A stretch of DNA of 64,000 nucleotides from Chiloscyllium plagiosum (taxonomy: Eukaryota): NCBI RefSeq assembly GCF_004010195.1, contig NC_057718.1:48791859-48855858 (forward strand). Direction: 5' to 3'. The notes under the pieces are model-generated. The model made no database searches. It saw nothing but the letters and a program-made list of their open reading frames with translations, and had not been told where the DNA came from. The translations under genes and the position numbers were made by a program. This document shows positions 4,201 through 58,400 of this stretch, piece after piece. Each line of letters begins with the position of its first letter. The first letter of the stretch is position 1.

Positions 4201-4692
4201 CCTACCTCTCAGTATTGTTCTGTGTCCCAGCAATGAGTACACACATCTTGCTGACTTGATGCCACCCACAGTAGGGGTCTCCGACAGCAACACACTGCCA
4301 GCAGGTGCTGCCTCGCAGTTCACCTGTGGGAGTCAGATGGTCTCCAAGGGTGTCCCAACAAAGGGGTGTCCCTGGGCAGGAAAGAGTGAGAGAGGGTTAG
4401 CATTTTGTGCCCCGATTTGACAACATCCTGGCACCTTCTGAGTTGGCAAACGGAACACAAACAGCGATGGCAATAGTAGGACTGATGGGAGTAGTACCTT
4501 TGTGCCAATCCAGCACAGGTTTCCCAGCCCTCCTTTGTCCCCATAATGATCCCCGATGCCTTACCGAGTATCTGTTTCCTCCCCCGCCCTTTCTACTCCA
4601 TACTCTCTTCCTGAGGCACAGCGACAGGGAGGCTCCCATTCTGCACTGATCCCCAATGGGGCATTCTACTTAGATTGAATTCAACTATGAGT

Positions 4693-4929
4693 ATGTGAAT
4701 AGGAAGCATTTAGAGGGATTTGGGCCAAGCGCTGGCAAATCGGACTAGATGAATTCAGGGTATCTGGTCAGCATGGACGGGTTGAACCACAGGGTCTGTT
4801 TCAATGCTGTACATCTCTATGACTCTAAATGGGATTAGATGAATTCAGGGTATCTAGTTGGCATGGACGAGTTGGACCAAAGGGTCTGTTTCCATGCTGT
4901 ATATCTCTGTGACTCTATGACTTTATGAC
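4693..4929 (+). mobile_element. Two tandem HER1/CR1 3' tails
   Basis: gggtctgttt(c)..atgctgta.atctct.tgactct tail occurs twice (ending about 4825 and 4929). Confidence 0.85.
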
Positions 4930-12557: not shown

Positions 12558-13096
12558 TCACAGTTCTGGTCTCCCTGCTATAGGAAAGATGTTGTGAGAC
12601 TTGAAAGGGTTCAGAAAAGATTTACAAGGATGTTACCAGGGTTGGAGGGTTTGAGCTATAGGGAGAGGCTGAATAGGCTGGGGCTGTTTTCCCTGGAACA
12701 TTGGAGGCTGAGGGGTGACCTTACACAGGTTTATAAAATCATGAGAGGCATGGATAGGATGAATAACCAAGATCTTTTTCCTCAGGATAGGGGAGTCCAA
12801 AACTAGAAGTCATAGTTTTAAGCTGAGAGTGGAAAGATTTAAAAGGGACCTAAGGGCAACCTTTTCATGCAGAGGATGGTGCGTGAATGGAAGGAGCTGC
12901 CCGAGGAAGTGATAGAGGCTGGTAGAGTTGAAAAATTTAAAAGGCATCTGGATGGGTACGTGAATAGGAAGAGTTTAGAGGGATATGGGCCAAATGCAGC
13001 AAATGGGACTAGATTAATTTAGGATGTCTGGTTGGTAATGAGGAGTTGGACTGAAAGATCTGTTTCTGTGCTGTACATCTCTGTGACTCTATGACT
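12558..13096 (+). mobile_element. HER1/CR1 LINE 3' fragment
   Basis: ORF LERVQKRFTRMLPGLEGLSYRERLNRLGLFSLE..RLRGDL; (ctatga) tail. Confidence 0.95.
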
Positions 13097-16350: not shown

Positions 16351-17578
16351 CATAGAGTCATCGAGATGTACTGCATGGAAACAAACCCTTCGGTCCAACC
16401 TGTCCATGTCGATCAGATATCCCAAACCAATCTAGTTCCACCTGCCAGCACCCAGCCCATATCCCTCCAAACTCTTCCTATTCATATACCCATCCAAATG
16501 CCTCTTAAATGTTGCAATTGTACCAGCCTCCACCACATCCTCTGGCAGCTCATTCCATACACGTACCACCCTCTGCANNNNNNNNNNNNNNNNNNNNNNN
16601 NNNNNNNNNNNNNNNNNNNNNNNNNNNNNNNNNNNNNNNNNNNNNNNNNNNNNNNNNNNNNNNNNNNNNNNNNNNNNNNNNNNNNNNNNNNNNNNNNNNN
16701 NNNNNNNNNNNNNNNNNNNNNNNNNNNNNNNNNNNNNNNNNNNNNNNNNNNNNNNNNNNNNNNNNNNNNNNNNNNNNNNNNNNNNNNNNNNNNNNNNNNN
16801 NNNNNNNNNNNNNNNNNNNNNNNNNNNNNNNNNNNNNNNNNNNNNNNNNNNNNNNNNNNNNNNNNNNNNNNNNNNNNNNNNNNNNNNNNNNNNNNNNNNN
16901 NNNNNNNNNNNNNNNNNNNNNNNNNNNNNNNNNNNNNNNNNNNNNNNNNNNNNNNNNNNNNNNNNNNNNNNNNNNNNNNNNNNNNNNNNNNNNNNNNNNN
17001 NNNNNNNNNNNNNNNNNNNNNNNNNNNNNNNNNNNNNNNNNNNNNNNNNNNNNNNNNNNNNNNNNNNNNNNNNNNNNNNNNNNNNNNNNNNNNNNNNNNN
17101 NNNNNNNNNNNNNNNNNNNNNNNNNNNNNNNNNNNNNNNNNNNNNNNNNNNNNNNNNNNNNNNNNNNNNNNNNNNNNNNNNNNNNNNNNNNNNNNNNNNN
17201 NNNNNNNNNNNNNNNNNNNNNNNNNNNNNNNNNNNNNNNNNNNNNNNNNNNNNNNNNNNNNNNNNNNNNNNNNNNNNNNNNNNNNNNNNNNNNNNNNNNN
17301 NNNNNNNNNNNNNNNNNNNNNNNNNNNNNNNNNNNNNNNNNNNNNNNNNNNNNNNNNNNNNNNNNNNNNNNNNNNAATCAGTCCTTGCCTTTCCAAATAC
17401 ATGTACACCCTGTCCCTCAGGATTCCGTCCAACAACTTGCCCACCACCGAGGTCAGGCTCACCAGTCTATAGTTCCCTGGCTTGTCCTTACCACCCTTCT
17501 TAAACAGTGGCACCACGTTTGCCAACCTCCAGTCTTCCAGCACCTCACCTGTGATTATCTATGATACAAATATCTCAA
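16351..17578 (-). mobile_element. HER1/CR1 LINE spanning an N gap
   Basis: EDWRLANVVPLFKKGGKDKPGNYRLVSLTSVVGKLL (RT N-terminus); 3' tail catagagtcat at 16351. Confidence 0.92.
16578..17375. other. Assembly gap (798 N)
   Basis: Run of N. Confidence 1.
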
Positions 17579-26744: not shown

Positions 26745-27220
26745 CATAGAATCATAGTCATAGAGATGTACAGCAAAGAAACAGACCCTTCAGTCCAACT
26801 CATCCATGTCAAACAGATATCCCAACCTAAACTAGTCCCACCTGCTAGCACCCGGCCAATATCCCTCCAAACCCTTCTTATTCATATACCCATCCAGATG
26901 CCTTTTAAATGGTGCAATAGTACTAGCCTCCACCACTTCCTCTGGCAGTTCATTCCATACATGTATCACCCTCTGCGTGAAAATTTGCTCCTTAGAACTC
27001 TTTTATATCTTTCCCCTCTCACCCTAAACTTATGCCCTCTAGTTCTGGACTCCCCCACCCTAGGGAAAAGACTTTGTCTATTTATCCTATCCATGCCCCG
27101 CATTATTTTGTAAACTTCTGTAAGGTCACCCCTCAGCTTCCAACGGTCCAGGAAAAACAGCCCCAGCCTGTTCAGCCTCTCCCTGTAGCTCAAATCCTCC
27201 AACCCTGACAACATCCTTGG
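26745..27220 (-). mobile_element. HER1/CR1 3' fragment
   Basis: RMLSGLEDLSYRERLNRLGLF..LRGDLTEVYKIMRG. Confidence 0.93.
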
Positions 27221-31857: not shown

Positions 31858-32932
31858 AACATAGAACATAGAACATTACAGCGCAGTACAGGCCCTTCGG
31901 CCCTCGATATTGCGCCGATCTGTCATACCAATCTGAAGCCCATCTAACCTACACTATTCCATGTACGTCCATATGCTTGTCCAATGACAACTTAAATGTA
32001 CTTAAAGTTGGCGAATCTACTACCATTGCAGGCAAAGCACTCCATGCCCTTACTACTCTCTGAGTAAAGAAACTACCTCTGACATCTGTCCTATATCTAT
32101 CACCCCTCAAGTTAAAGCTATGCCCCCTCATGCTCGCCGTCACCATACTTGGAAAAAGGCTCTCCCTGTCCACCCTTTCTAACCCTCTGATTATCTTATA
32201 TGTCTCCATTAAGTCACCTCTCAATCTTCTTCTCTCCAACGAAAACAGTCTCAAGTCCCTCAGCCTTTCCTCATAAGACCTTCCCTCCATACCAGGCAAC
32301 ATCCTAGTAAATCTCCTCTGCACCCTTTCCAAAGCTTCCACATCCTTCTTATAATGTGGTGATCGGAACTGTACACAATATTCCAAGTGCGGCCGCACCA
32401 GAGTTTTGTACTGATGCAGCATAACCTCATGGTTCCAGAACTTGATCCCTCTATTACTAAAAGCTAAAACACTGTATGCCTTCTTAACAACCCTGTCAAC
32501 CTGGATAGCAACTTTCAAGGATCTGTGTACATGGCCACCGAGATCTCTCTGCTCATCTACACTACCAAGAATCTTACCATTAGCCCAGTACTTTGCATTC
32601 CGGTCACTCCGAACAAAGTGAATCATCTCACACTTGTCCGCATTAAACTCCATTTGCAACCTCTCAGCCCAGCTCTGCAGCTTATCTATGTCTCTCTGTA
32701 ACCTACAACATCCTTCATCACTATCCACAACTCCACCGACCTTAGTGTCGTCTGCAAATTTACTAACTCACCCTTCTTACGCCCTCATCCAGGTCGTTTA
32801 TAAAAATGATGAACAGCAGTGGACCCAACACTGACCCTTGCGTTACACCACTAGTAACTGGACTCCAGGATGAACATTTCCCATCAACCACCACCCTCTG
32901 TCTTCTTTCAGCAAGCCAATTACTGATCCAAA
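31858..32932 (-). mobile_element. Relatively young 5'-truncated CR1 LINE (RT C-terminal half)
   Basis: ORFs 32763-33071 ([24 protein letters not shown]) and 31949-32728 (259 aa; RPHLEYCVQF..ALERVQRRFTRMLPG); (catagaa)n tail. Confidence 0.95.
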
Positions 32933-33769: not shown

Positions 33770-34040
33770 ATTTTGGCATCTTTTGGTGGGACAAGGTCAT
33801 AAGCTGAGTGGTCCTGGAGCATGCTAATTCCCTCCACATACATCCATTGCTAAACCAACAATACCTGCACATTCATTGGAAGGCTGATGGTTGTATACCC
33901 AAAGGCATCAGTATAGTGAGTGACCTGGCCACTGGAGTATGGTCTGCTGGGCATTCCTATCTCACCTGCAAGATATGAAGAAGCTGAACGTTGCTACAAG
34001 AAACTGGGAAACTCTCACCAGCAGCTGTGATCTTTGGAGT
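33770..34040 (+). mobile_element. RTE-clade LINE ORF2 C-terminal fragment
   Basis: WDKV..VLEHANSL..DGCIPK..LATG..KKLNVATRNWETLTSSCDLW resembles the RTE C-terminus. Confidence 0.65.
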
Positions 34041-34550
34041 TGGCCCTGGTCTGTTCAGCCTCTCCCTGTGACTCGGGCCCTCCGACCCTGGCGGCATCCC
34101 AGTGGATCTTTTGTAGACCCTTTCAAGTTTCAGGATATCCTTCCTATAGGAGTAAGACCGGGGGGTGGGGGGGTTAACCTTACGGAGGTTTGTGAAGTCA
34201 AGAGGGGCATGGGTGGGATAAATTGGATGGGGTCTTTTCCCTAGGGTGGGGGAGTCCAGAAGTGGAGGGCATGGATTTGGGACGAGAGGGGAAAGATGTC
34301 GAGGGGACCTGGAGGGAAGCTTTTTTGCACGGAGGGTGGTGTGTGTATGGATTGGGCTGCTGGGGGAGGTGGTGGAGGCTGGTACAATTGCAGCATTTGA
34401 GGGGCATCTGGATGGGTGTATGAGTGGGAGGGGTTTGGAGGGATGTGGGCCAGGTGCTGGCAAATGACTCCAAATTAAGTTGGGATGCCTAGTCCGCAAG
34501 GACGATTTGGACTGAGGGGTCTGTTTCCATGCTGTACATCTCTATGACTC
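34041..34550 (+). mobile_element. HER1/CR1 3' fragment with 5' inversion (34041-34160 antisense, 34161-34550 sense), A-to-G hypermutated
   Basis: Alignable to CR1 copies at 12558-13096 and 57521-58110; differences dominated by A>G. Confidence 0.9.
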
Positions 34551-34834
34551 ATTTGGAAGAGCATCAGAATGGGGAAGCAGAAATAAAAAGCTCATTCGAT
34601 TGAGAAGTGTGTTCAGCGAAAACCAAAAGCCTGAAGATCCTGCATCTTCTCAGATCATTGTCTTCCTCTGCAACAAAATATGGCATGGTCTGCCTTACCA
34701 GAGTGGGGCTCTGGAGCCACAACAGGAAATAACAGTGCGGATTTGACCACGATGGTGCAAGCCAACATCTTCATCACATTCCTTTCTGTTCATCTTTCTC
34801 CATGTACAGTCTGCTCTCTGTGAGTATGTAGAGT

Positions 34835-35439: not shown

Positions 35440-36090
35440 ACATAATAAGGTGGTTCAGAAGGTGTTTAATATACTTGCCTTCATTGCTCAGACCTTTGTG
35501 TATAGGAGTTGGGACATTATGTTGAGGTTATTCAAGATGTTGATGAGGCTTTTTCTGGAGTACTTTTGTATCCAGTTCTAGTCGTCCTGTTATAGAAAGG
35601 ATATTATTAAGCTGGAGAGGATTCAGAAGATATTTACCAGGATGTTGCTGGGAAGGGAGAGTTTGAGTTATAAGGAGAGGCTGGGACCTTTTTCACTAGA
35701 GTGCAGGAGGTGGAGGGGTCACCTTATAGAGGCTTATAAAACCATGAGGGGCATAGGTAAGGCGAACGGGAGATGACTTTGCCGAGGGTGTTACATTTCA
35801 AGACCAGGAGGCGTAGATTTAAGGTGAGAGGAGAAAGATTTATAAAAGACATGAGGGGCAATTGTTTTACACAGAGAGTGGTTCATGTATAGAATGAACT
35901 TCCAGACAAAGTGGTGGAATGTGGGTACAGTTACAATGGTTAAAAGATATTTGGGTAAGTACACAAATAAGAAATATTTGGAGAGATGGGGGCCTAGTGT
36001 AGGCAGGTGGGAGTAGTTTAGTTTGGGATTATGGTCAGTGTGGACTGGTTGGACTGAAGGGTCTGTTTCTGTGCTGTATAACTCTCTGAC
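35440..36090 (+). mobile_element. CR1 3' fragment
   Basis: aagctggagaggattcagaagatatttaccaggatgttg...gggtctgtttctgtgctgtataactctctgact. Confidence 0.88.
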
Positions 36091-38974
36091 TTTATAATAA
36101 TAAAATTGACATTTAACTTTGTTGGGAGTCCTAATGATGTTGAAAATCTGACAATTAAAATGGCAGTGGGAATGCAGTGGAAATACCTGATTTCCACTGT
36201 AACTTCTGACTTACATTGTTCCTGATGGGCAGGTTGGAATAAATTTGACCCTGATATGTAATAAAACTTTGTAGCTTTAAATCTTTGAATTAATGCAAAA
36301 TGAAATGAATTCATAAATCGTATTGCTTTGGTGAGTAATGCAGATGTATCAAATTAATTGGTTGATTTGAACTGCATTGTGCTGCACTTGGCAGATTAAA
36401 TGTAAGGGAAAATGTTGCTGCTAAAAGAAAAATACATCGATATACCAGGCCATTAATCTGATATTTCTGCAAATGTTGTTTAAGACCTTCTCAACTCTTT
36501 GTGAAACTTAACACCTTGAAAGATAGTTACACGCTTTTTATGAGGTAATAAAATCTACTTTATTATAAAATTCATTACAAGACATTAAAACTGCTGTCGA
36601 CTTGCCAGATTGATTATAAATACTTTCTTCTTAGATGTTATTGCTTTAATATAAGAACAAACAAATGACAAAAGAATTTAAGGTAACTACCCTCTTCTTG
36701 TACCTCAGACAGCTGTGAAGGTAGCATGTCAAGGACATTTGGTCAGATCTTTAACCTGAAGACCTTAACCAGAGCTGTAGGGGTTCAGTCTGTTCCTTCC
36801 TAACAGGACTCAGAGGTGCATACCACTAGACCACAGGGAGGAGAGAACCTGTAGTGCACTGAACTTAAGTTATGTCATATCCATTCCTTTCTTCCTGCCT
36901 TCTTTCCTCATTTGCAATACAACCACCATCCCCATGGGGTAAAGAACATTACTGGCTATTCACCCAGTATGAATAGACACGAACAGGCTTTTTCACCATT
37001 CTAATATTGCTACATTCGCAGACACATCCTGTAGGTCATCAGCAACAGCCTTAATTTCAATTTAGTGTCTCCCAGTGGAACAACCTGCTCGAGTGTCAGT
37101 ACAAACTTAACAGTTATTTTCTTTCAGGTCACAGAATTAAACAGGAGTTTTATCTGACATGATTAATGTTTCCTGAACAACTTGTATATAACAAAAAGCA
37201 CCCTTAATGAAACATGTAGATCTGAGGATTATAAAGAGGCCAGACTTAATGCATCCAAATAGTCAAGCATAGATCTGTAGTTCAAATGAAACCGATTTAT
37301 TTACAAGTGGAAGAAAATACTGCGCTGTTACCATTTAAATTTCAATTAGTCAGCAGAGAAGAAGTGTGGATGACTAGAGATAATTATCCTGCTCTCTCTG
37401 ACAGTCTTTTCCTGTATTCACAACCCTTGCAGGTGATTTTGAAACACAATCTACCAACAGCTGCAAAATAGGCAGTTAGTTTAGAGGTTGGAGTCTTTCA
37501 CCCTTGTGGCACTCTGAGCAAGTTCCAGTTTATTGTTTGCAGCCTCTTTGGACTGCCAGCCACCCCTGAAGAACACTACAATGTGTCTTGTACAATTATT
37601 AGTAGTGTTTTAAATCCTGATGTCTGGCTTTGAAATTCATTTCTGTTAAAGTTTGCAAAGTTCATTACCTTCAACAATTGTGAAGGATTTGTCATTGCCT
37701 CAATTTCAGTTTTTCAGTAAGACTCGATTTTGTGATCTTGTCTTTATATGACTTATCAATTCTAGGAAAGGCTACCTTAATGTGTAGGAGTGAGGGTTAA
37801 GACCAGTGAAGCTACCAGCTTCAGTCCCCAGTTTGTACAGTCAGCATATTAGAACTTGAGAAGTAGTAAGCTCATTTACATAGGATATTTCGCAAAAGAG
37901 CAGGCCTTTCAGCCCATCCAGCCATGCCTATATTAGGATAAAAGTAACCATGGTTCTTGCTGTTGATTATTTTCTCTTAATCCCTTTTGGAACATACAGC
38001 TCTATGTATTTTGGCTGAGGATAGATTCAGGCTCAATGAGATGCCTTTGCAATCATATAATGTGCTACAGCAGACCCAAATATTCCAGAGGCTTGCAAGA
38101 CTTCCACAATCACTGTGAACAAAAACACTTCCAACTAAAACACTCTGACCTCATTGGGATATATAGGATCAGAAATTTTGCAGAAAGCACAACACTGGAA
38201 TATCCAAACATATAAAGCTGACGAGGACAAAGCTAACAGCCTAACTCAAATGTTTGGACTTAACAGTCCATTTGAAAGAGCTTGGTTGAGGAACCACTAA
38301 CCCACTACCAGAAAGCTACTTTCCTTGCAGCAGGTGATCAGCCTGTACCCAACAATGATGAAAACCGAACATTCCTAATTTATATATCATGCTTCTGTCA
38401 CTTGTCAAGTATCATACACGTGCTTTCGAGGCAGATGCAGAATTTGCAATCCTTCACTGTTGGCCTTATCCCACCATTCTGACATTTGTTTTTGCACAGT
38501 GGGGGAATTATACAACTGAACAATGGAATTATGCTAAGCTATTGAATTTTGTGACTGGACTATAGAACTGTACAACTGGACTGTGGATTGTACTGCAGGG
38601 CTCTGAAATCCAAGCAAGTATTGTATATGAAAGTAAAACATGGCTAATCATAGAAATAAAGGCAGAAATCCCTGGAAATGCAGAGTAATATTTTGGCCCA
38701 GTATAGGTGAAAGAAGAGCTATATATATCCACACAACGAACTTGGAAGTGGAAACCCTAATGCTCTTGTCATTCTAAGTGATGCAATTCATGGGTATGGG
38801 AGATACTGTTGAAGTAGATTTGGTGATTGAACAATGTCACTTTCAAATTTCTGATTAATCAGATAATTTTAACTGTGACATATGTTATTCCTCTTTCACC
38901 CCAGTGGATTAAAATTCTGAAAACTTCTGCTTAACATTCCCTAGAATGAATACACACTTTTAAAGTTCATAAAT

Positions 38975-46469: not shown

Positions 46470-47392
46470 TAAGACCATAAGACATAGGATCATTCAATCA
46501 TGGCTGATGGGCATTTCAACTCCACTTACCCGCATTCTCCCTGTAGCCTTTAATTCCTTGTGACTCAAGAATTCATCAATCTCTGCCTTGAAGACATTTA
46601 GCATCCCGGCCTCCACTGCACTCTGCGGCAATGAATTCCACAGGCCCACCACTCTCTGGCTGAAGAAATGTCTCCGCATTTCTGTTCTGAATTTACCCCC
46701 TCTAATTCTAAGGCTGTGTCCACGGGTCCTAGTCTCCTCGCCTAACGGAAACAATNNNNNNNNNNNNNNNNNNNNNNNNNNNNNNNNNNNNNNNNNNNNN
46801 NNNNNNNNNNNNNNNNNNNNNNNNNNNNNNNNNNNNNNNNNNNNNNNNNNNNNNNNNNNNNNNNNNNNNNNNNNNNNNNNNNNNNNNNNNNNNNNNNNNN
46901 NNNNNNNNNNNNNNNNNNNNNNNNNNNNNNNNNNNNNNNNNNNNNNNNNNNNNNNNNNNNNNNNNNNNNNNNNNNNNNNNNNNNNNNNNNNNNNNGTCTA
47001 GATCCTTCTGCAGCCTCCCCACTTCCTCATTACTACCTGCCTGTCCACCTAACTTCGTATCATCGGCAAACTTCACTAGAATGCCCCCAATCCCTTCATC
47101 CAGATCATTAATATATAACGTGAACAGCTGCGGCCCCAACACTGAACCCTGCGGGACACCGCTTGTCATCGGCTGCCATTCCGAAAAAGAACCTTTTATC
47201 CCAACTTTCTGCCTTCTGTCAGACAGCCAATCCTCAATCCATATCAGTAGCTCACCTCGAACACCATGGGCCCTCACCTTGCTCAGCAGCCTCCCATGTG
47301 GCACCTTATCAAAGGCCTTTTGGAAGTCTAGATAGACCACATACACTGGGTTTCCCTGGTCTAACCTACTTGTCTCCTCTTCAAAGAAATTA
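46470..47392 (-). mobile_element. CR1 RT fragment spanning an N gap
   Basis: VVYLDFQKAFDKVPH..SGVPQGSVLGPQLFTLYINDLD..KFADDTKL. Confidence 0.95.
46756..46995. other. Assembly gap (240 N)
   Basis: Run of N. Confidence 1.
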
Positions 47393-52029: not shown

Positions 52030-52715
52030 GGTGCAGGGATGTCTTGCTGCAATTGTTACAGGGCTTTGTGAGACTACACCTGGAGTATTGATTGCAATTT
52101 TGGTATCCTTATCTGAAGAAGGATGTTCTGGCTATAGAGGGAGTACAATGAAGGTTTGCCAAATTGATTCCTGGCTTATCATAACTGGTATGAGGAGAGA
52201 TTGGGTCAGTTAGGTTATTTTCACAGGAGTTCACAAAATTGAGGGGTGATCTCAAAGAAAGCAAAACATTTTAACAACACCAGGCAGGAGTACACATAGG
52301 GAAGGATGTTCTTGATAACCAGAGAGGGCAGAACCAAGGGTGAGAGGGTAAGGATATGAGGTAGACCATTTAGGACTGAGATGAGGAGAAATTTCTTCAG
52401 CCAGAGAATGNNNNNNNNNNNNNNNNNNNNNNNNNNNNNNNNNNCTGCGAGGCAGCAGTGCTAACCACTGTGCCACCGTGCCGCCCACAGAACCACAGAA
52501 CCACACTGTGCCACCTACCACAGAAAGTGGATAACCTCAAATCATTGAATGTTTTAAAGAAGGAGTTCAATGTAGTTCTTAGGGCTAAAGTGATCAAAGG
52601 GTACAAGAGAAAAGCAGGCACAGGATACTGAGGTGGATGATCCACCATGATCATATTGAAAGGTGCAGCAGGCTTGAAGGCCAAATACCCTGCTCCCGAA
52701 ATCATTTTCTATGTT
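52030..52715 (+). mobile_element. CR1 3' fragment with nested HE1 SINE head (52445-52486, minus) beside a 34-N gap (52411-52444)
   Basis: gactacacctggagtatt...taggactgagatgaggagaaatttcttca; gtgctaaccactgtgccaccgtgccgccc. Confidence 0.8.
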
Positions 52716-55499: not shown

Positions 55500-58400
55500 G
55501 AACTCGCCTCTGTGGATTAAGTTTACTCAGAAAGAAGAGGGGCAGAAGGACAAAAAGTTACAATTTTAAGAGATACAGGATCTAACCAGACTCTAATACT
55601 AAGAGATGGAACTATTTGCATTCTTTCTGATCTGTTACCCGAGAGAATGGTAATTTGTGGGATGGATGGACAAAAATGTAGCATTCCCCGATGTAAAATC
55701 AGGTTGGAGTGCTAACTCAAGTCTGGGCAAGTAACAGTGGGAGTGATTGACAGAGTGTCAGTTCCAGGAATACAGTTTGTTCTTGGGAACAATTTACCAG
55801 GATCCAAGGTGGGAGTGACACCCCTTGTTGTGGAGAAGCCCAAGGAAGACTAGAGAACTGAGGAGTTAAAAGAAAAGTACCCTGCTGTTTTTCTAGACTG
55901 TGTAGTCACAAGATTCCACTGTCATAAATCACAGAATGAAGCAAAAACTAAAGAGAAAGATGAAGGAGTTGAAGTTCACTTAGCGGACACCCTGTTTCAC
56001 ATAATGGTGCAGGAAAAACCTGAACAGGCAGAAGGTCAGACAGAAGTGTTTAGTTCTGAAAGGCTAATGGACTTATAACAGAAAGATGAGACAATAAAAG
56101 ATATATATGTTGACACATACTCAGAAAAGGAGTCAGCGAATATTCCTGATGGTTATTTTCTGAAAGATGAAATCCTAAGATGAAAATGGAGACCATGGCA
56201 GGATAGTGTAGAGGAGAAATGGCTCAAAGTGCACCAGATTGCATTGTTGGTAGCATACAGACAGGAAGTGTTACGGGTTGCACATGAACTACCAGTAGGA
56301 GGTTACCTAGGGCTACGAAAGACTCAGGCTAAGGTATAAAAGCATTTCCATTGGCCTGAACTGCACAAGGATGTGGTTAAATTTTGCCATACATGTCATA
56401 CATGCAAATGGTAGGTAAGCCACAGGCAATAATAAAACCAGCACTTTTGTTACCAATTCCTGCAAACAAAGATCCGTTCACGCAGGTTATGATTGGTTGT
56501 ATAGGGTCCCTTCTGAGAACTAAAAGTGAGAACCAGTACTTGCTAACTATAATGCTACCAGATTTCCAGAGGCAATTCCATTTCAGAGTATTAAGGAAAC
56601 AAGGGTGGTAGAGGAGTTTATAACTTTCTTTCACATGGTATGAGCTACCCAGAGAGATTCAGTCAGACCAAGAATCTAGTTTTACTGCAAGGCTGTTTAA
56701 GGAAGTCATGGATAGCTTAGGCAGACAGCACTTTAAATCAAGTGCGTACCATCTTGAATCCAAGGGAGCTTTGGAAAGATGACATCAGATCCTGAAGACC
56801 ATTTTAAGAGTGTACTGTCATGATCACCCAAATGATTGGGATAAAGGTACCACATTCATATTGTTTGTCATTTGAGATGCCCCAAATGAGTCTACTCACT
56901 TTACTCCCTTTGAGTTAATATTTGGACTTGAAGTGAGAGGCCCTTTGAAATTAAAGAGAAACTGACCGGACTGAAGTCTGAGATCTCACATTTGGATTAT
57001 CTATTGAATGTGAGGGAGAGATTAAATCAAGTAGGTGAGTTAGCTAACCAGCACCTGAAGAGGGCACAGAATAGAATGAAGCAGGTGGTAGATAAAAACT
57101 GTGTAATGCGGAAATTTTCCCATGAGGATGATATATTGGTATTGTTACCGGTGGTATGAGACCCCTTCAAAGCCAAGTTTAGTGGTCCCTATGAAATTGA
57201 GAAAAAGTTGAGTCAAGCCAACTATCTGGTAAAAATGCCAGATAAGAAAAAAACTGTATTGGGTATGTCATGTGAATATGTTGAAACCTTATTATAATAG
57301 AGAGAAGGACTGGAGAAACAAATGTTAGTTACTGCCCCTCAAAGTGAGGAATCAAACCCAGATGTTGTGGAGTTTGATTTGCCTCAAAATATGTTAAAAA
57401 TGAGGATGTCCTTGAGGAGTAGGATAGGTAAGTGAACTATATGTCTCAGGAGCAAAGAACCCTGTTGGAAAGTTTGTTGCAGCAGTATGAGAACATATGC
57501 AGGAATAAGATGGGGAGAACTAATGCTATTGCAGCTGTACAGGACATTGGTAAGGCCACTGTTGGAATATTGCATGCAATTCTGGTTTCCTGCCTATCAG
57601 AAAGATGTTGTGATACTTGAAAGGCTTCAGAAAAGATTTACAAGGATGTTGCCAAGGTTGGATGATTTGAGATATAGGAAGAGGCTGAACAGGCTGGGAC
57701 TGTTTTCCTGGAGCATCGGAGGCTGAGGGGTGACCTTATAGAGGTTTACAAATTCATGAGGGACGTGGATAGGGTAAATAGGCAAAGTCTTTTCCCCGGG
57801 GTGAGGGGAGTCCAGAACTAGAGGACATAGGTTTAGAGTGAGAGGGGAAAGATATAAAAGAGACCTAAGGGGCAACATTTTCACACAGAGAATGGTTTGT
57901 GTATGGAATGAGCTGCCAGAGGAAATGGTGGAGGCTGGTACAATTGCAACATTTAAGAGGCAATTGGATGGATATATGAATAGGAAGGATTTGGAGGGAT
58001 GTGGGCTGGGTGCTGGCAGGTGGGACTAGATTGGGTTGGGATATCTGGTTGGCATGGACGGGTTGGACCGAAGGGTCTGTTTCCATGGCTGTACATCTCT
58101 ATGACTATGACAAGTGGATGCAATGCTCAACAAAGATACAATTGAACCGAATGAGAGCGAGTGCAGTTTGCTGATCTTGTTAGTTCCCAAACCTGATAGG
58201 ACTCAATGATTTTGGTGGACTATTGGAAGGTCAGTGCTGTAACAAAATTGGATTCAGACCCAATACCATGATTGGAGGACTGTATAGAGAAAGTTGGACA
58301 AGCCAGTTATATCACTTACTGTGTGGTTATTAGCAGGTAGCTCTTAGAGAGAAAGCAAAAAGAATTTCTGCATTTGTAACCCCAAATGGGCTACCTCAAT

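What the first reader, a model, noticed from the sequence alone, without database searches (positions are those of the whole stretch)
34041..34550. A-to-G hypermutated CR1 copy: possible fossil of an ADAR-hyperedited RNA written back into the genome
Seen: compared with sibling CR1 copies in this window (12558-13096, 57521-58110), the sense arm carries roughly 35 A>G changes over about 380 bp by my hand count (gatataaaagagac>gatgtcgaggggac; ccagaggaa>ctgggggag; tatatgaatagga>tgtatgagtggga), with few changes of other kinds. The 5' 120 bp are inverted with twin-priming geometry, yet that arm also shows A>G on the + strand (ctcaaa>ctcggg; ggcaacatc>ggcggcatc; gtaaatc>gtggatc; compare 27165-27218). 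Established: clustered A>G is the signature of ADAR A-to-I hyperediting of dsRNA read by reverse transcriptase, whereas APOBEC3 gives G>A. Inference: an edited CR1 mRNA inverted during insertion would show T>C in the inverted arm. Same-strand A>G in both arms implies that a transcript of an already-inverted copy was edited and then re-retrotransposed or used as a repair template, which would be a germline record of RNA editing.
Basis: partly seen in the sequence, partly recalled or inferred. Interest (0 to 1): 0.82.

Follow-up and report, generated by a model that had tools for sequence, protein, structure and literature searches.

The report
ADAR-type hyperedited CR1 copy with inverted arm
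A dead fragment of a shark jumping gene carries dozens of A-to-G changes on one DNA strand, the mark of an RNA-editing enzyme, so it is most likely an edited RNA that was copied back into the germline, a rare but previously described kind of event.

Summary
I compared it with a majority consensus of 59 genomic copies.

- **Sense arm** (about 34160-34551): 39 A>G against 6 T>C.
- **Inverted 5' arm** (34041-34162): 20 against 3 in favour of A>G on the window + strand.
- About 4 of these 59 changes are older-subfamily states.
- 51 ordinary copies have 0-12 A>G, median 4.

The edited sites show the ADAR context. G is depleted at -1 and enriched at +1. Ordinary A>G changes in normal copies show no G depletion at -1.

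At least 8 other sense-strand hypermutated copies and one antisense-edited fragment exist in this genome.

The edited composite is present in contigs from an independent study of the same species. It is also present at the orthologous locus of a second species. It is therefore real, germline and old.

No unedited parent with the same junction was found, though these searches were not exhaustive.

Simple twin priming of an edited CR1 RNA is excluded, because it would put the edits on opposite strands in the two arms. The route remains open: re-mobilisation of an edited transcript of an older inverted copy (my pick, about 0.4), a strand switch by the reverse transcriptase on edited dsRNA, or in-situ write-back.

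ADAR fossils in retroelements are already known, and this scan noted one before on other DNA (e1-7810917).

The parts
34041..34162 (-). Inverted 5' arm. It is the antisense of CR1-like ORF2 C-terminal coding sequence (reference positions about 332 down to 216). 20 of 37 consensus T (element orientation) read C, which is A>G on the window + strand.
34159..34162 (.). Inversion junction. A 4-nt overlap 'ccgg' is shared by both arms. Edits run up to it on both sides.
   Evidence: read; coordinates
34163..34445 (+). Hyperedited part of the sense arm (consensus positions about 240-530, end of ORF2). 36 of 86 consensus A read G.
34446..34551 (+). Spared 3' end of the sense arm: last codons, 3' UTR with a predicted short stem, and the terminal ...ctctatgactc. 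Only 2 of 16 consensus A read G.
34034..34040 (.). Possible target-site duplication, left copy 'tttggag'. It is ambiguous, because 'ggag' may still belong to the inverted arm.
   Evidence: read
34553..34560 (.). Possible target-site duplication, right copy 'tttggaag'.
   Evidence: read

Best explanation
The element is the 3' 510 nt of a CR1-like LINE (end of ORF2 plus the 3' UTR), and its first ~120 nt are inverted.

An RNA strand that carried both arms in this arrangement was part of a long double-stranded RNA. An ADAR-type adenosine deaminase changed about 40-55% of its adenosines to inosine. Reverse transcriptase read the inosines as G, and the copy became fixed in the germline before two shark species split.

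The route I think most likely is this:
1. An older 5'-inverted copy, made by ordinary twin priming, was transcribed within a longer + strand transcript.
2. That transcript was hyperedited. RNA-level hyperediting of this kind is reported mainly in CR1 3' fragments in chicken, and hyper-editing is abundant in repeats in elephant shark.
3. Because the copy kept an unedited CR1 3' end, the CR1 reverse transcriptase recognised it and inserted it here.

Shown: the spectrum, the strand, the neighbour context, the geometry, that such copies recur in this genome, and that this one is old.
Inferred: ADAR as the enzyme, the dsRNA partner, and the re-mobilisation step.
For: Strand and spectrum: A>G 39 against T>C 6 in the sense arm, and 20 against 3 on the same genomic strand in the inverted arm.

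ADAR context:
- Pooled over 11 hypermutated pieces, -1 G is 16% of edited sites against 42% of unedited (p=1.5e-20), and +1 G is 41% against 31%.
- Per unique site in the 8 other copies, the edited fraction by -1 base is T 0.53, A 0.40, C 0.23, G 0.15 (Kruskal-Wallis p=3e-8).
- Control: ordinary A>G in 51 normal copies has -1 G at 42% against a 36% background.
- This matches the motif described for hyper-editing (passages).

Recurrence: 8 of the 29 closest genomic hits to c34 are A>G hypermutated on the element's sense strand, with 18-65 A>G each. Their edit sets overlap only partly, and their other divergence is low.

Editing happened away from the present loci: only 1-2 of 9 hypermutated loci hold an opposite-strand family copy within about 1.5 kb, against 17 of 78 loci overall. 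This fits editing before insertion.

3' sparing: the last ~100 nt are spared in c34 (2 of 16 A against 36 of 86) and in the 8 others (12 of 135 against 218 of 675). That is expected if only RNAs with an intact 3' recognition end can be reverse transcribed.

Other support:
- Unedited 5' inversions exist in the family (L063).
- CR1 3' fragments are the main hyperedited repeats in chicken RNA, and elephant shark brain shows 200,171 hyper-editing sites (passages).
- The edited composite lies at the orthologous locus in a second species at about 95% identity, while the best paralog reaches only 81%.
Against: - No parent was found. 0 of 39 non-self hits span the junction. All hits to the inverted arm are ordinary collinear copies. 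The upstream flank occurs once in the assembly. These searches scored only the 40 best candidates each.
- Re-mobilisation has to explain why the new copy ends within about 17 nt of where a twin-primed parent would end. Either that is a coincidence, or the flank is transduced and the parent locus has been lost.
- No dsRNA partner is identified. The element RNA has no fold of its own (z 0.22 and -0.15 against 30 mononucleotide shuffles).
- The context test in the inverted arm alone is not significant (-1 G 3 of 20 against 4 of 16).
- The other hypermutated copies were retrieved by their likeness to c34, so site sharing and 3' sparing are partly inflated by selection.
- In cell assays 5' inversions were nearly confined to human L1, and an L2-clade LINE made none (passages).
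Confidence: 0.4

Rival explanations
1. One-step strand switch. The template was a sense/antisense CR1 dsRNA edited on both strands. The CR1 reverse transcriptase copied the sense strand from its 3' end to reference position ~349. It then jumped onto the edited antisense strand at ~216 and copied it back up to ~332, where it met the fork. This would make a 5' inversion that mimics twin priming but carries A>G on one genomic strand in both arms.
For: - It explains same-strand edits, the near coincidence of positions 332 and 349, the microhomology at the junction, the unique flank and the missing parent in a single event.
- Classical 5' inversions were not seen with a short-TSD, stringent-type LINE in assays.
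- A second antisense-edited piece, L070 (T>C 22 of 32 differences, A>G 0), is followed 18 nt later by a 17-nt match to the element's 3' terminus in the other orientation. It shares 8 of its 10 edits in the common span with the c34 arm.
Against: - I know of no report of a LINE reverse transcriptase switching onto the complementary strand of a dsRNA (recalled; not searched specifically).
- None of the 8 sense-hypermutated copies has an inverted arm.
- The L070 tail match is weak: 3% of random windows score as high.
- The unedited inversion L063 shows that inversions arise without editing.
Confidence: 0.25
2. In-situ write-back. The composite is an ordinary twin-primed insertion at this locus. 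Later a + strand transcript of the locus was hyperedited. Its cDNA, or the RNA itself, then served as template for gene conversion or break repair of the same locus.
For: - The twin-priming geometry, the possible TSD, the unique flank and the absence of any parent all follow without coincidence.
- The edits stop at the element borders, as expected if the duplex was made with other family copies.
- Family copies of both orientations lie 1-1.6 kb away, at 32038-32418 (-) and 35566-36091 (+).
- L070 is an antisense-edited internal fragment without a clear CR1 3' end.
Against: - No independent evidence for such a pathway here.
- The neighbouring copies are now 26-35% diverged from the consensus and show no matching hypermutation.
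- The 3' sparing is the same as in copies that were evidently retrotransposed.
- The other hypermutated copies lack local partners.
Confidence: 0.2
3. A DNA-level, strand-asymmetric A>G mutator acting on the + strand after insertion. Candidates are deamination of dA in RNA:DNA hybrids, error-prone polymerase patches at WA, or transcription-coupled damage.
For: - Same-strand changes in both arms are what a locus-level DNA process gives.
- The -1 preference for T or A also fits a WA-type polymerase error motif (recalled).
Against: - 39-56% of A changed within about 400 bp, with sharp stops at the element borders and normal A content in the flanks.
- The same pattern occurs in dispersed copies on the element's sense strand.
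- +1 G is enriched, and the -1 order is T>A>C>G, as for ADAR.
Confidence: 0.08
4. Not a special event: a G-rich subfamily, GC-biased gene conversion, ordinary decay, or an assembly or sequencing error.
For: About 4 of the 59 changes are older-subfamily states.
Against: - Normal and older copies carry A (or T in the inverted arm) at nearly all the sites.
- The best genomic relative is 81% identical.
- T>C is not raised on the same strand.
- Contigs from another study and from another species carry the edited form.
Confidence: 0.02

Closest known systems
ADAR A-to-G hyperediting of retroviral RNA fixed in proviral DNA (RAV-1, Felder et al. 1994; avian leukosis virus, Hajjar and Linial 1995)
   Same: Clustered A>G on one strand of a reverse-transcribed element, attributed to dsRNA adenosine deaminase. 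I saw this only as a passage in the review PMC8586724. The originals are not held.
   Different: Those are exogenous retroviruses or vectors in cell culture. Here it is a non-LTR LINE fragment fixed in a shark germline, shared by two species, with an inverted arm edited on the same strand.
Hyper-edited retrotransposons in mammalian genomes (Knisbacher and Levanon 2015, Ann N Y Acad Sci 1341:115)
   Same: Genomic retroelement copies bearing clusters of editing-type mismatches and taken as edited RNAs that re-integrated. I saw only the title in reference lists and a one-line mention. The content is recalled, and the paper is not held.
   Different: Mammals, not cartilaginous fish. I know of no report of an inversion composite with same-strand edits. 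Searches found none, but subscription journals are not covered.
RNA-level hyper-editing of CR1 3' fragments (chicken) and of repeats in elephant shark (Porath et al. 2017, PMC5625713)
   Same: The same kind of substrate. Short 3' CR1 fragments pair with oppositely oriented copies and are massively edited. The ADAR motif is G depleted upstream and enriched downstream (passages).
   Different: Those are differences between RNA and DNA. Here the G's are in the DNA itself.
Twin priming 5' inversion of LINE-1 (Ostertag and Kazazian 2001, as cited in PMC4245944)
   Same: An inverted 5' segment whose outer end abuts the start of the sense segment, with junction microhomology.
   Different: Twin priming copies one RNA from two primers, so RNA edits should fall on opposite genomic strands in the two arms. 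Here they are on the same strand. In assays, inversions were nearly confined to human L1.
APOBEC3 G-to-A editing of retroelement cDNA (Knisbacher and Levanon 2016, PMC4866542)
   Same: A strand-specific, clustered deaminase scar in genomic retroelement copies (passage).
   Different: The direction is G>A on the sense strand. c34 has 17 G>A among 88 differences, in line with ordinary copies.

Membership tests
Genomic fossil of ADAR-hyperedited RNA | Strand-specific excess of A>G over T>C and over the other transitions | tested here: met
   39 against 6, and 20 against 3, on the + strand
Genomic fossil of ADAR-hyperedited RNA | High density in a bounded cluster (tens of percent of adenosines) | tested here: met
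   36 of 86 and 20 of 37 sites. The flanks have normal A content
Genomic fossil of ADAR-hyperedited RNA | Neighbour context: G depleted at -1 and enriched at +1 | tested here: met
   c34 alone p=0.005 and p=0.016. Pooled p=1.5e-20. The control in normal copies is negative. The inverted arm alone is not significant.
Genomic fossil of ADAR-hyperedited RNA | A double-stranded RNA partner for the edited stretch | tested here: inconclusive
   No intramolecular fold. Opposite-strand copies lie 1-1.6 kb away but are old. The partner at the time of editing is unknown.
Genomic fossil of ADAR-hyperedited RNA | An unedited source copy, or consensus states that show the direction of change | tested here: inconclusive
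   The direction is shown by the consensus and by older copies. No parent with the same junction was found (only the 40 best candidates were scored each time).
Genomic fossil of ADAR-hyperedited RNA | An active ADAR in the organism's germline | not tested
   ADAR genes of this genome were not searched. Hyper-editing is reported in elephant shark brain.
CR1-clade LINE | Belongs to an ORF2 with endonuclease and reverse transcriptase domains | tested here: met
   The 176-aa ORF over this region in L012 matches the C-termini of proteins that carry PF03372, PF14529 and PF00078, from sharks, rays, birds and turtles. Pfam itself gave 0 families for 3 ORF pieces.
CR1-clade LINE | Variable 5' truncation with a common 3' end | tested here: met
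   Copies start at many positions and end at reference 736-748. Upstream extension ranges from 0 to more than 1370 nt.
CR1-clade LINE | 3' end without poly(A), ending in a short repeated motif (feature recalled) | tested here: met
   The ends read ...ctctatgactc or tgactctatgact, with no A tail. Loose-end consensus is TATGACTCTAT.
CR1-clade LINE | Placement in the CR1 clade by RT phylogeny | not tested
   No tree was made. The label rests on relatives in bird and turtle genomes and on recalled motifs.
Twin-primed 5' inversion | Inverted 5' segment whose outer end abuts the start of the sense segment | tested here: met
   Reference 332 down to 216, then 349-737
Twin-primed 5' inversion | Target-site duplication around the whole composite | tested here: inconclusive
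   tttggag and tttggaag at the borders. The 5' border is uncertain by about 4 nt.
Twin-primed 5' inversion | Both arms are copies of one RNA, so RNA-borne changes lie on opposite genomic strands | tested here: not met
   A>G lies on the + strand in both arms. If twin priming made the inversion, the editing came later or on another RNA.
APOBEC-edited retroelement | Clustered G>A on the sense strand | tested here: not met
   G>A is 17 of 88 and 4 of 38, as in ordinary copies

The most novel reading that the evidence does not exclude
RNA editing was written back in place. An ordinary twin-primed CR1 insertion at this locus was transcribed and ADAR-hyperedited across both arms. The edited transcript, or its cDNA, then replaced the DNA of the same locus by RNA-templated repair or gene conversion in the germline of a vertebrate. 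This reading needs no lost parent and no coincidence in the 5' end, and nothing I ran excludes it.
Probability: 0.2. Interest if true: 0.85.

Novelty: new member of a known kind. Interest (0 to 1): 0.55.

Why it matters
It shows that in a shark genome, RNA edited by an ADAR-type enzyme has been copied back into heritable DNA repeatedly. At least ten pieces of one LINE family were seen here. ADAR editing is therefore a source of bursts of 20-65 substitutions in new repeat copies. Such bursts distort age estimates based on divergence and can found G-rich variants.

The sparing of the last ~100 nt suggests a filter: only RNAs with an intact 3' recognition end are reverse transcribed. That would map the part of the RNA that this reverse transcriptase needs.

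The copy in the window adds a natural strand marker to a 5' inversion. The edits show which RNA strand each arm was copied from, and the answer does not fit plain twin priming. A census of such marked inversions could tell apart three things: re-mobilisation of embedded copies, strand switching on dsRNA, and in-situ RNA-templated conversion. The last would be a significant finding for vertebrate germlines.

Tried and rejected
Explanations tested and rejected:
- **G-rich subfamily.** Rejected. Normal and older copies carry A at nearly all the sites, and the best relative is 81% identical.
- **GC-biased conversion or a symmetric transition spectrum.** Rejected.
- **APOBEC.** Rejected.
- **Intramolecular hairpin as the ADAR substrate.** No fold beyond shuffles (only 30 mononucleotide shuffles).

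Searches for a parent or relatives:
- Parent with the same junction: none among the scored hits.
- Upstream flank elsewhere in the genome: none.
- The downstream flank is an old low-copy repeat, with 13 non-self hits at 69-85%.
- Looking for more antisense-edited copies with the inverted arm gave one (L070) among 19 loci.
- The same search with the L070 arm returned only hits at 86-88%, the identity expected of unedited copies. No sequences were fetched.
- Neighbouring repeats of L070 could not be scored, because there were too few copies among the held loci.
- The sense tail after L070 is weak.

Limits on data:
An unbiased sample of copies, and so the frequency of hypermutated copies, could not be obtained.

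Family naming: Pfam gave nothing for three ORF pieces, and the ESM Atlas gave no named family.

Sequencing runs:
- No RNA holder is listed for this stretch.
- For organism C only the 3' junction contig was listed. Bins 33881-34004 have no cover.

Literature and earlier notes:
- Knisbacher and Levanon 2015 and Hajjar and Linial 1995 are not held.
- PMC5974252 had nothing relevant.
- Earlier notes of this scan had nothing for this genome.

Full report
**What is there.**
Window 34041-34551 is a 3' fragment of a LINE that is very abundant in this 3.56-Gb genome. There were 13,456 first-look candidates for one copy, which is a lower bound.

Copies share a 3' end and are truncated at many different 5' positions. 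A 176-aa open frame over this region in a longer copy matches the C-termini of proteins that carry endonuclease and reverse-transcriptase domains. These come from sharks, rays, birds and turtles. Pfam itself recognised nothing in three ORF pieces, and the Atlas gave no name.

The ends read ...ctctatgactc without a poly(A) tail. I accept "CR1-like". The clade label itself rests on recalled motifs and on the host range of the relatives, not on a tree.

**Structure.**
BLAST within the window and against a natural 706-nt reference copy (L002) gives two pieces. One is an inverted piece, 34043-34159, running from reference 332 down to 216. The other is a forward piece, 34159-34550, reference 349-737.

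The outer end of the inverted arm lies 17 nt from the start of the sense arm. By eye the homology may run a few nt further. The arms meet in a 4-nt overlap. This is the geometry of a twin-primed 5' inversion.

A possible 7-8-nt target duplication (tttggag / tttggaag) brackets the composite. It is uncertain because the last four letters of the left copy may belong to the arm.

Among 139 family hits in 81 held sources, only this copy and one other have such an inversion. The other is L063, which is unedited and has a 66-nt overlap of the arms.

**The substitution spectrum.**
I aligned 59 genomic copies. These were the 29 closest to copy 57521-58110, that copy itself as L001, and the 29 closest to c34. 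L031, which is c34 itself, was left out. I took the majority base per column and counted differences.

| Piece | Differences / aligned | A>G | T>C | G>A | C>T |
|---|---|---|---|---|---|
| Sense arm | 88 / 398 | 39 | 6 | 17 | 6 |
| Inverted arm (element orientation) | 38 / 130 | 3 | 20 | 4 | 3 |

In the inverted arm the excess is therefore again A>G on the window + strand.

- Per available site, 39 of 103 A against 6 of 96 T, and 20 of 37 T against 3 of 34 A.
- The 51 copies I call normal have 0-12 A>G, median 4.
- Three of the 39 sites and one of the 20 carry the same base in older copies, so they are subfamily states.
- At the remaining sites normal and older copies have A (or T) almost throughout.
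- The flanks have 25-36% A against 15.6% and 19.1% in the edited parts.

**Is it ADAR-like?**
- For c34 alone, G precedes 11 of 59 edited but 32 of 76 unedited adenosines (p=0.005). G follows 26 of 59 against 18 of 76 (p=0.016).
- Pooled over c34, eight other hypermutated copies and L070, -1 G is 16% against 42% (p=1.5e-20), -1 T is 37% against 16%, and +1 G is 41% against 31%. These pooled sites are not independent.
- I therefore also took each consensus A once. In the eight other copies the mean edited fraction is 0.53 after T, 0.40 after A, 0.23 after C and 0.15 after G (Kruskal-Wallis p=3e-8).
- Ordinary A>G changes in the 51 normal copies show no such bias (-1 G 42% against 36%).
- G depleted upstream and enriched downstream is the motif reported for hyper-editing (passages). 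Excess 5' A/U with depleted 5' G is quoted as ADAR specificity in a review (passage).
- The inverted arm alone is too small to test.

**It is not unique.**
Of the 29 genomic loci most like c34, eight are hypermutated A>G on the element's sense strand:

| Locus | A>G count |
|---|---|
| L032 | 34 |
| L033 | 22 |
| L035 | 48 |
| L036 | 55 |
| L041 | 19 |
| L043 | 65 |
| L050 | 41 |
| L059 | 18 |

Their T>C counts are 3-6.

Their edit sets overlap about 1.5-2 times more than chance, but each is a different subset. This fits hot spots, not common descent. Retrieval by likeness to c34 inflates the overlap.

Their remaining divergence is about 4-6% for the most heavily edited ones (L032, L035, L036, L043), computed. 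These are therefore fairly young.

With the inverted arm as query, one of 19 loci is hypermutated the other way. This is L070, with T>C 22 of 32 differences and A>G 0, covering reference 211-472.

Only 1-2 of these nine loci hold an opposite-strand family copy within about 1.5 kb, against 17 of 78 loci overall. The present surroundings therefore do not explain the editing.

In all of them the last ~100 nt are spared. The figures are 12 of 135 A against 218 of 675 in consensus 230-530, and in c34 2 of 16 against 36 of 86.

My reading, which is an inference, is a filter. A stringent-type reverse transcriptase must recognise the 3' end, so only RNAs whose 3' end escaped editing get copied.

**It is real and old.**
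The runs were laid as contigs, not raw reads.
- A run of the same species from another study has a contig over 33850-34166 with 2 other letters. This covers the flank, the whole inverted arm and the junction. Another contig covers 34528-34750 with 2.
- Two runs labelled as a second species have single contigs from the unique flank through the junction. One reaches 34260 (20 other letters, 12 gap letters). The other reaches 34394 (26 other letters, 12 gap letters). That is about 95% identity.
- No paralog exceeds 81%.
- An unedited ortholog would differ at 40 or more further sites in that span.

The hyperedited composite therefore predates the split of the two species. A third species shows only the 3' junction.

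**What the two arms say about mechanism.**
If a CR1 RNA had been edited and then inserted with twin priming, both arms would carry A>G in element orientation. The inverted arm would then show T>C on the + strand. The opposite is seen (20 against 3).

The same argument excludes reverse-transcriptase error, deamination of cDNA in the insertion intermediates, and a DNA inversion after insertion of an edited copy.

What remains is that one RNA (or DNA) strand containing both arms in the present arrangement was edited, or that the inverted arm was copied from an edited antisense RNA.

The element RNA has no fold of its own. The duplex partner must therefore have been another RNA or another copy in the same transcript.

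RNA-level hyper-editing of exactly this kind of substrate is documented. CR1 3' fragments are the main edited repeats in chicken, and elephant shark brain has 200,171 hyper-editing sites (passages).

**Three routes fit.**

*(a) Re-mobilisation.* A transcript through an older inverted copy is edited and, having a CR1 3' end, is inserted here.
- For: this pathway evidently makes the other hypermutated copies, and inverted copies exist.
- Against: no parent was found. 0 of 39 non-self hits span the junction, and the arm hits are all collinear copies. The flank is unique. The 5' end of the copy would coincide with the parent's end by chance, or else the parent locus was lost. The searches scored only 40 candidates each.

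*(b) Strand switch.* The reverse transcriptase leaves the sense strand of an edited duplex at 349 and copies the antisense strand from 216 to 332.
- For: this explains everything in one event. It also fits the report that short-TSD LINEs do not make classical inversions in assays.
- Against: it is undocumented as far as I know. None of the eight sense-edited copies has an inverted arm. The hint from L070 is weak.

*(c) In-situ write-back of an edited locus transcript.*
- For: it needs no coincidence.
- Against: there is no independent support for it here.

I put these at about 0.4, 0.25 and 0.2. A DNA-level mutator is at 0.08 and trivial explanations at 0.02. The general statement, an ADAR-type edited RNA fixed through reverse transcription, I hold at about 0.8.

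**Novelty.**
Fixation of ADAR hyperediting through reverse transcription has been described for avian retroviruses. [quoted passage not shown] This scan has also noted an ADAR-edited hairpin fossil in a LINE of another genome (e1-7810917), which I did not test.

My searches found no report for cartilaginous fish or CR1, nor for an inversion composite edited on one strand. Subscription journals are largely outside that library.

I file it as a new member of a known kind. It has an informative twist: the edits act as a strand label on a 5' inversion.

Noticed in passing
L070:1359-1621 (G000 C25:36649914-36650176): An internal CR1-like fragment (reference 211-472) is hypermutated T>C in element orientation (22 of 32 differences, A>G 0). 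It has no clear CR1 3' end beside it. It is an antisense-edited piece whose way into the genome is unexplained.
   Followed up: partly
L063:1096-1737: An unedited copy with a 5' inversion. The sense arm covers reference 194-738, and the inverted arm covers 163-260 and overlaps it by 66 nt. This shows that inversions occur in this family without hypermutation.
   Followed up: partly
loci L035, L040, L044, L050, L063, L067 (5' ends at reference 193-195); L032, L070 and the c34 inner arm end at 211-216: 5' ends of copies pile up at reference positions 193-195 and about 211-225. This could be a preferred stop of reverse transcription or a short sub-element. Several of the hypermutated pieces end there.
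   Followed up: no
consensus positions 531-631 of the family (window 34446-34551 in c34): The last ~100 nt are spared from A>G in all nine sense-edited pieces (12 of 135 A against 218 of 675 further upstream in the eight other copies). This may mark the part of the RNA that the reverse transcriptase must recognise.
   Followed up: partly
window 4687-4925: Two partial 3' ends of the same family lie head to tail (4692-4824 and 4830-4914), forming a tandem of element tails.
   Followed up: no
window 16578-17375, 46756-46995, 52411-52444: Runs of N (1072 in all). The first abuts a family copy at 16356-16575.
   Followed up: no
proteins P0001, P0005, P0008, P0058: Several close relatives of this shark LINE ORF2 are filed in public databases under bacterial names (Proteus, Carnobacterium, Klebsiella, Sedimenticola) on short contigs. 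This is probably contamination of those assemblies by fish or other vertebrate DNA.
   Followed up: no
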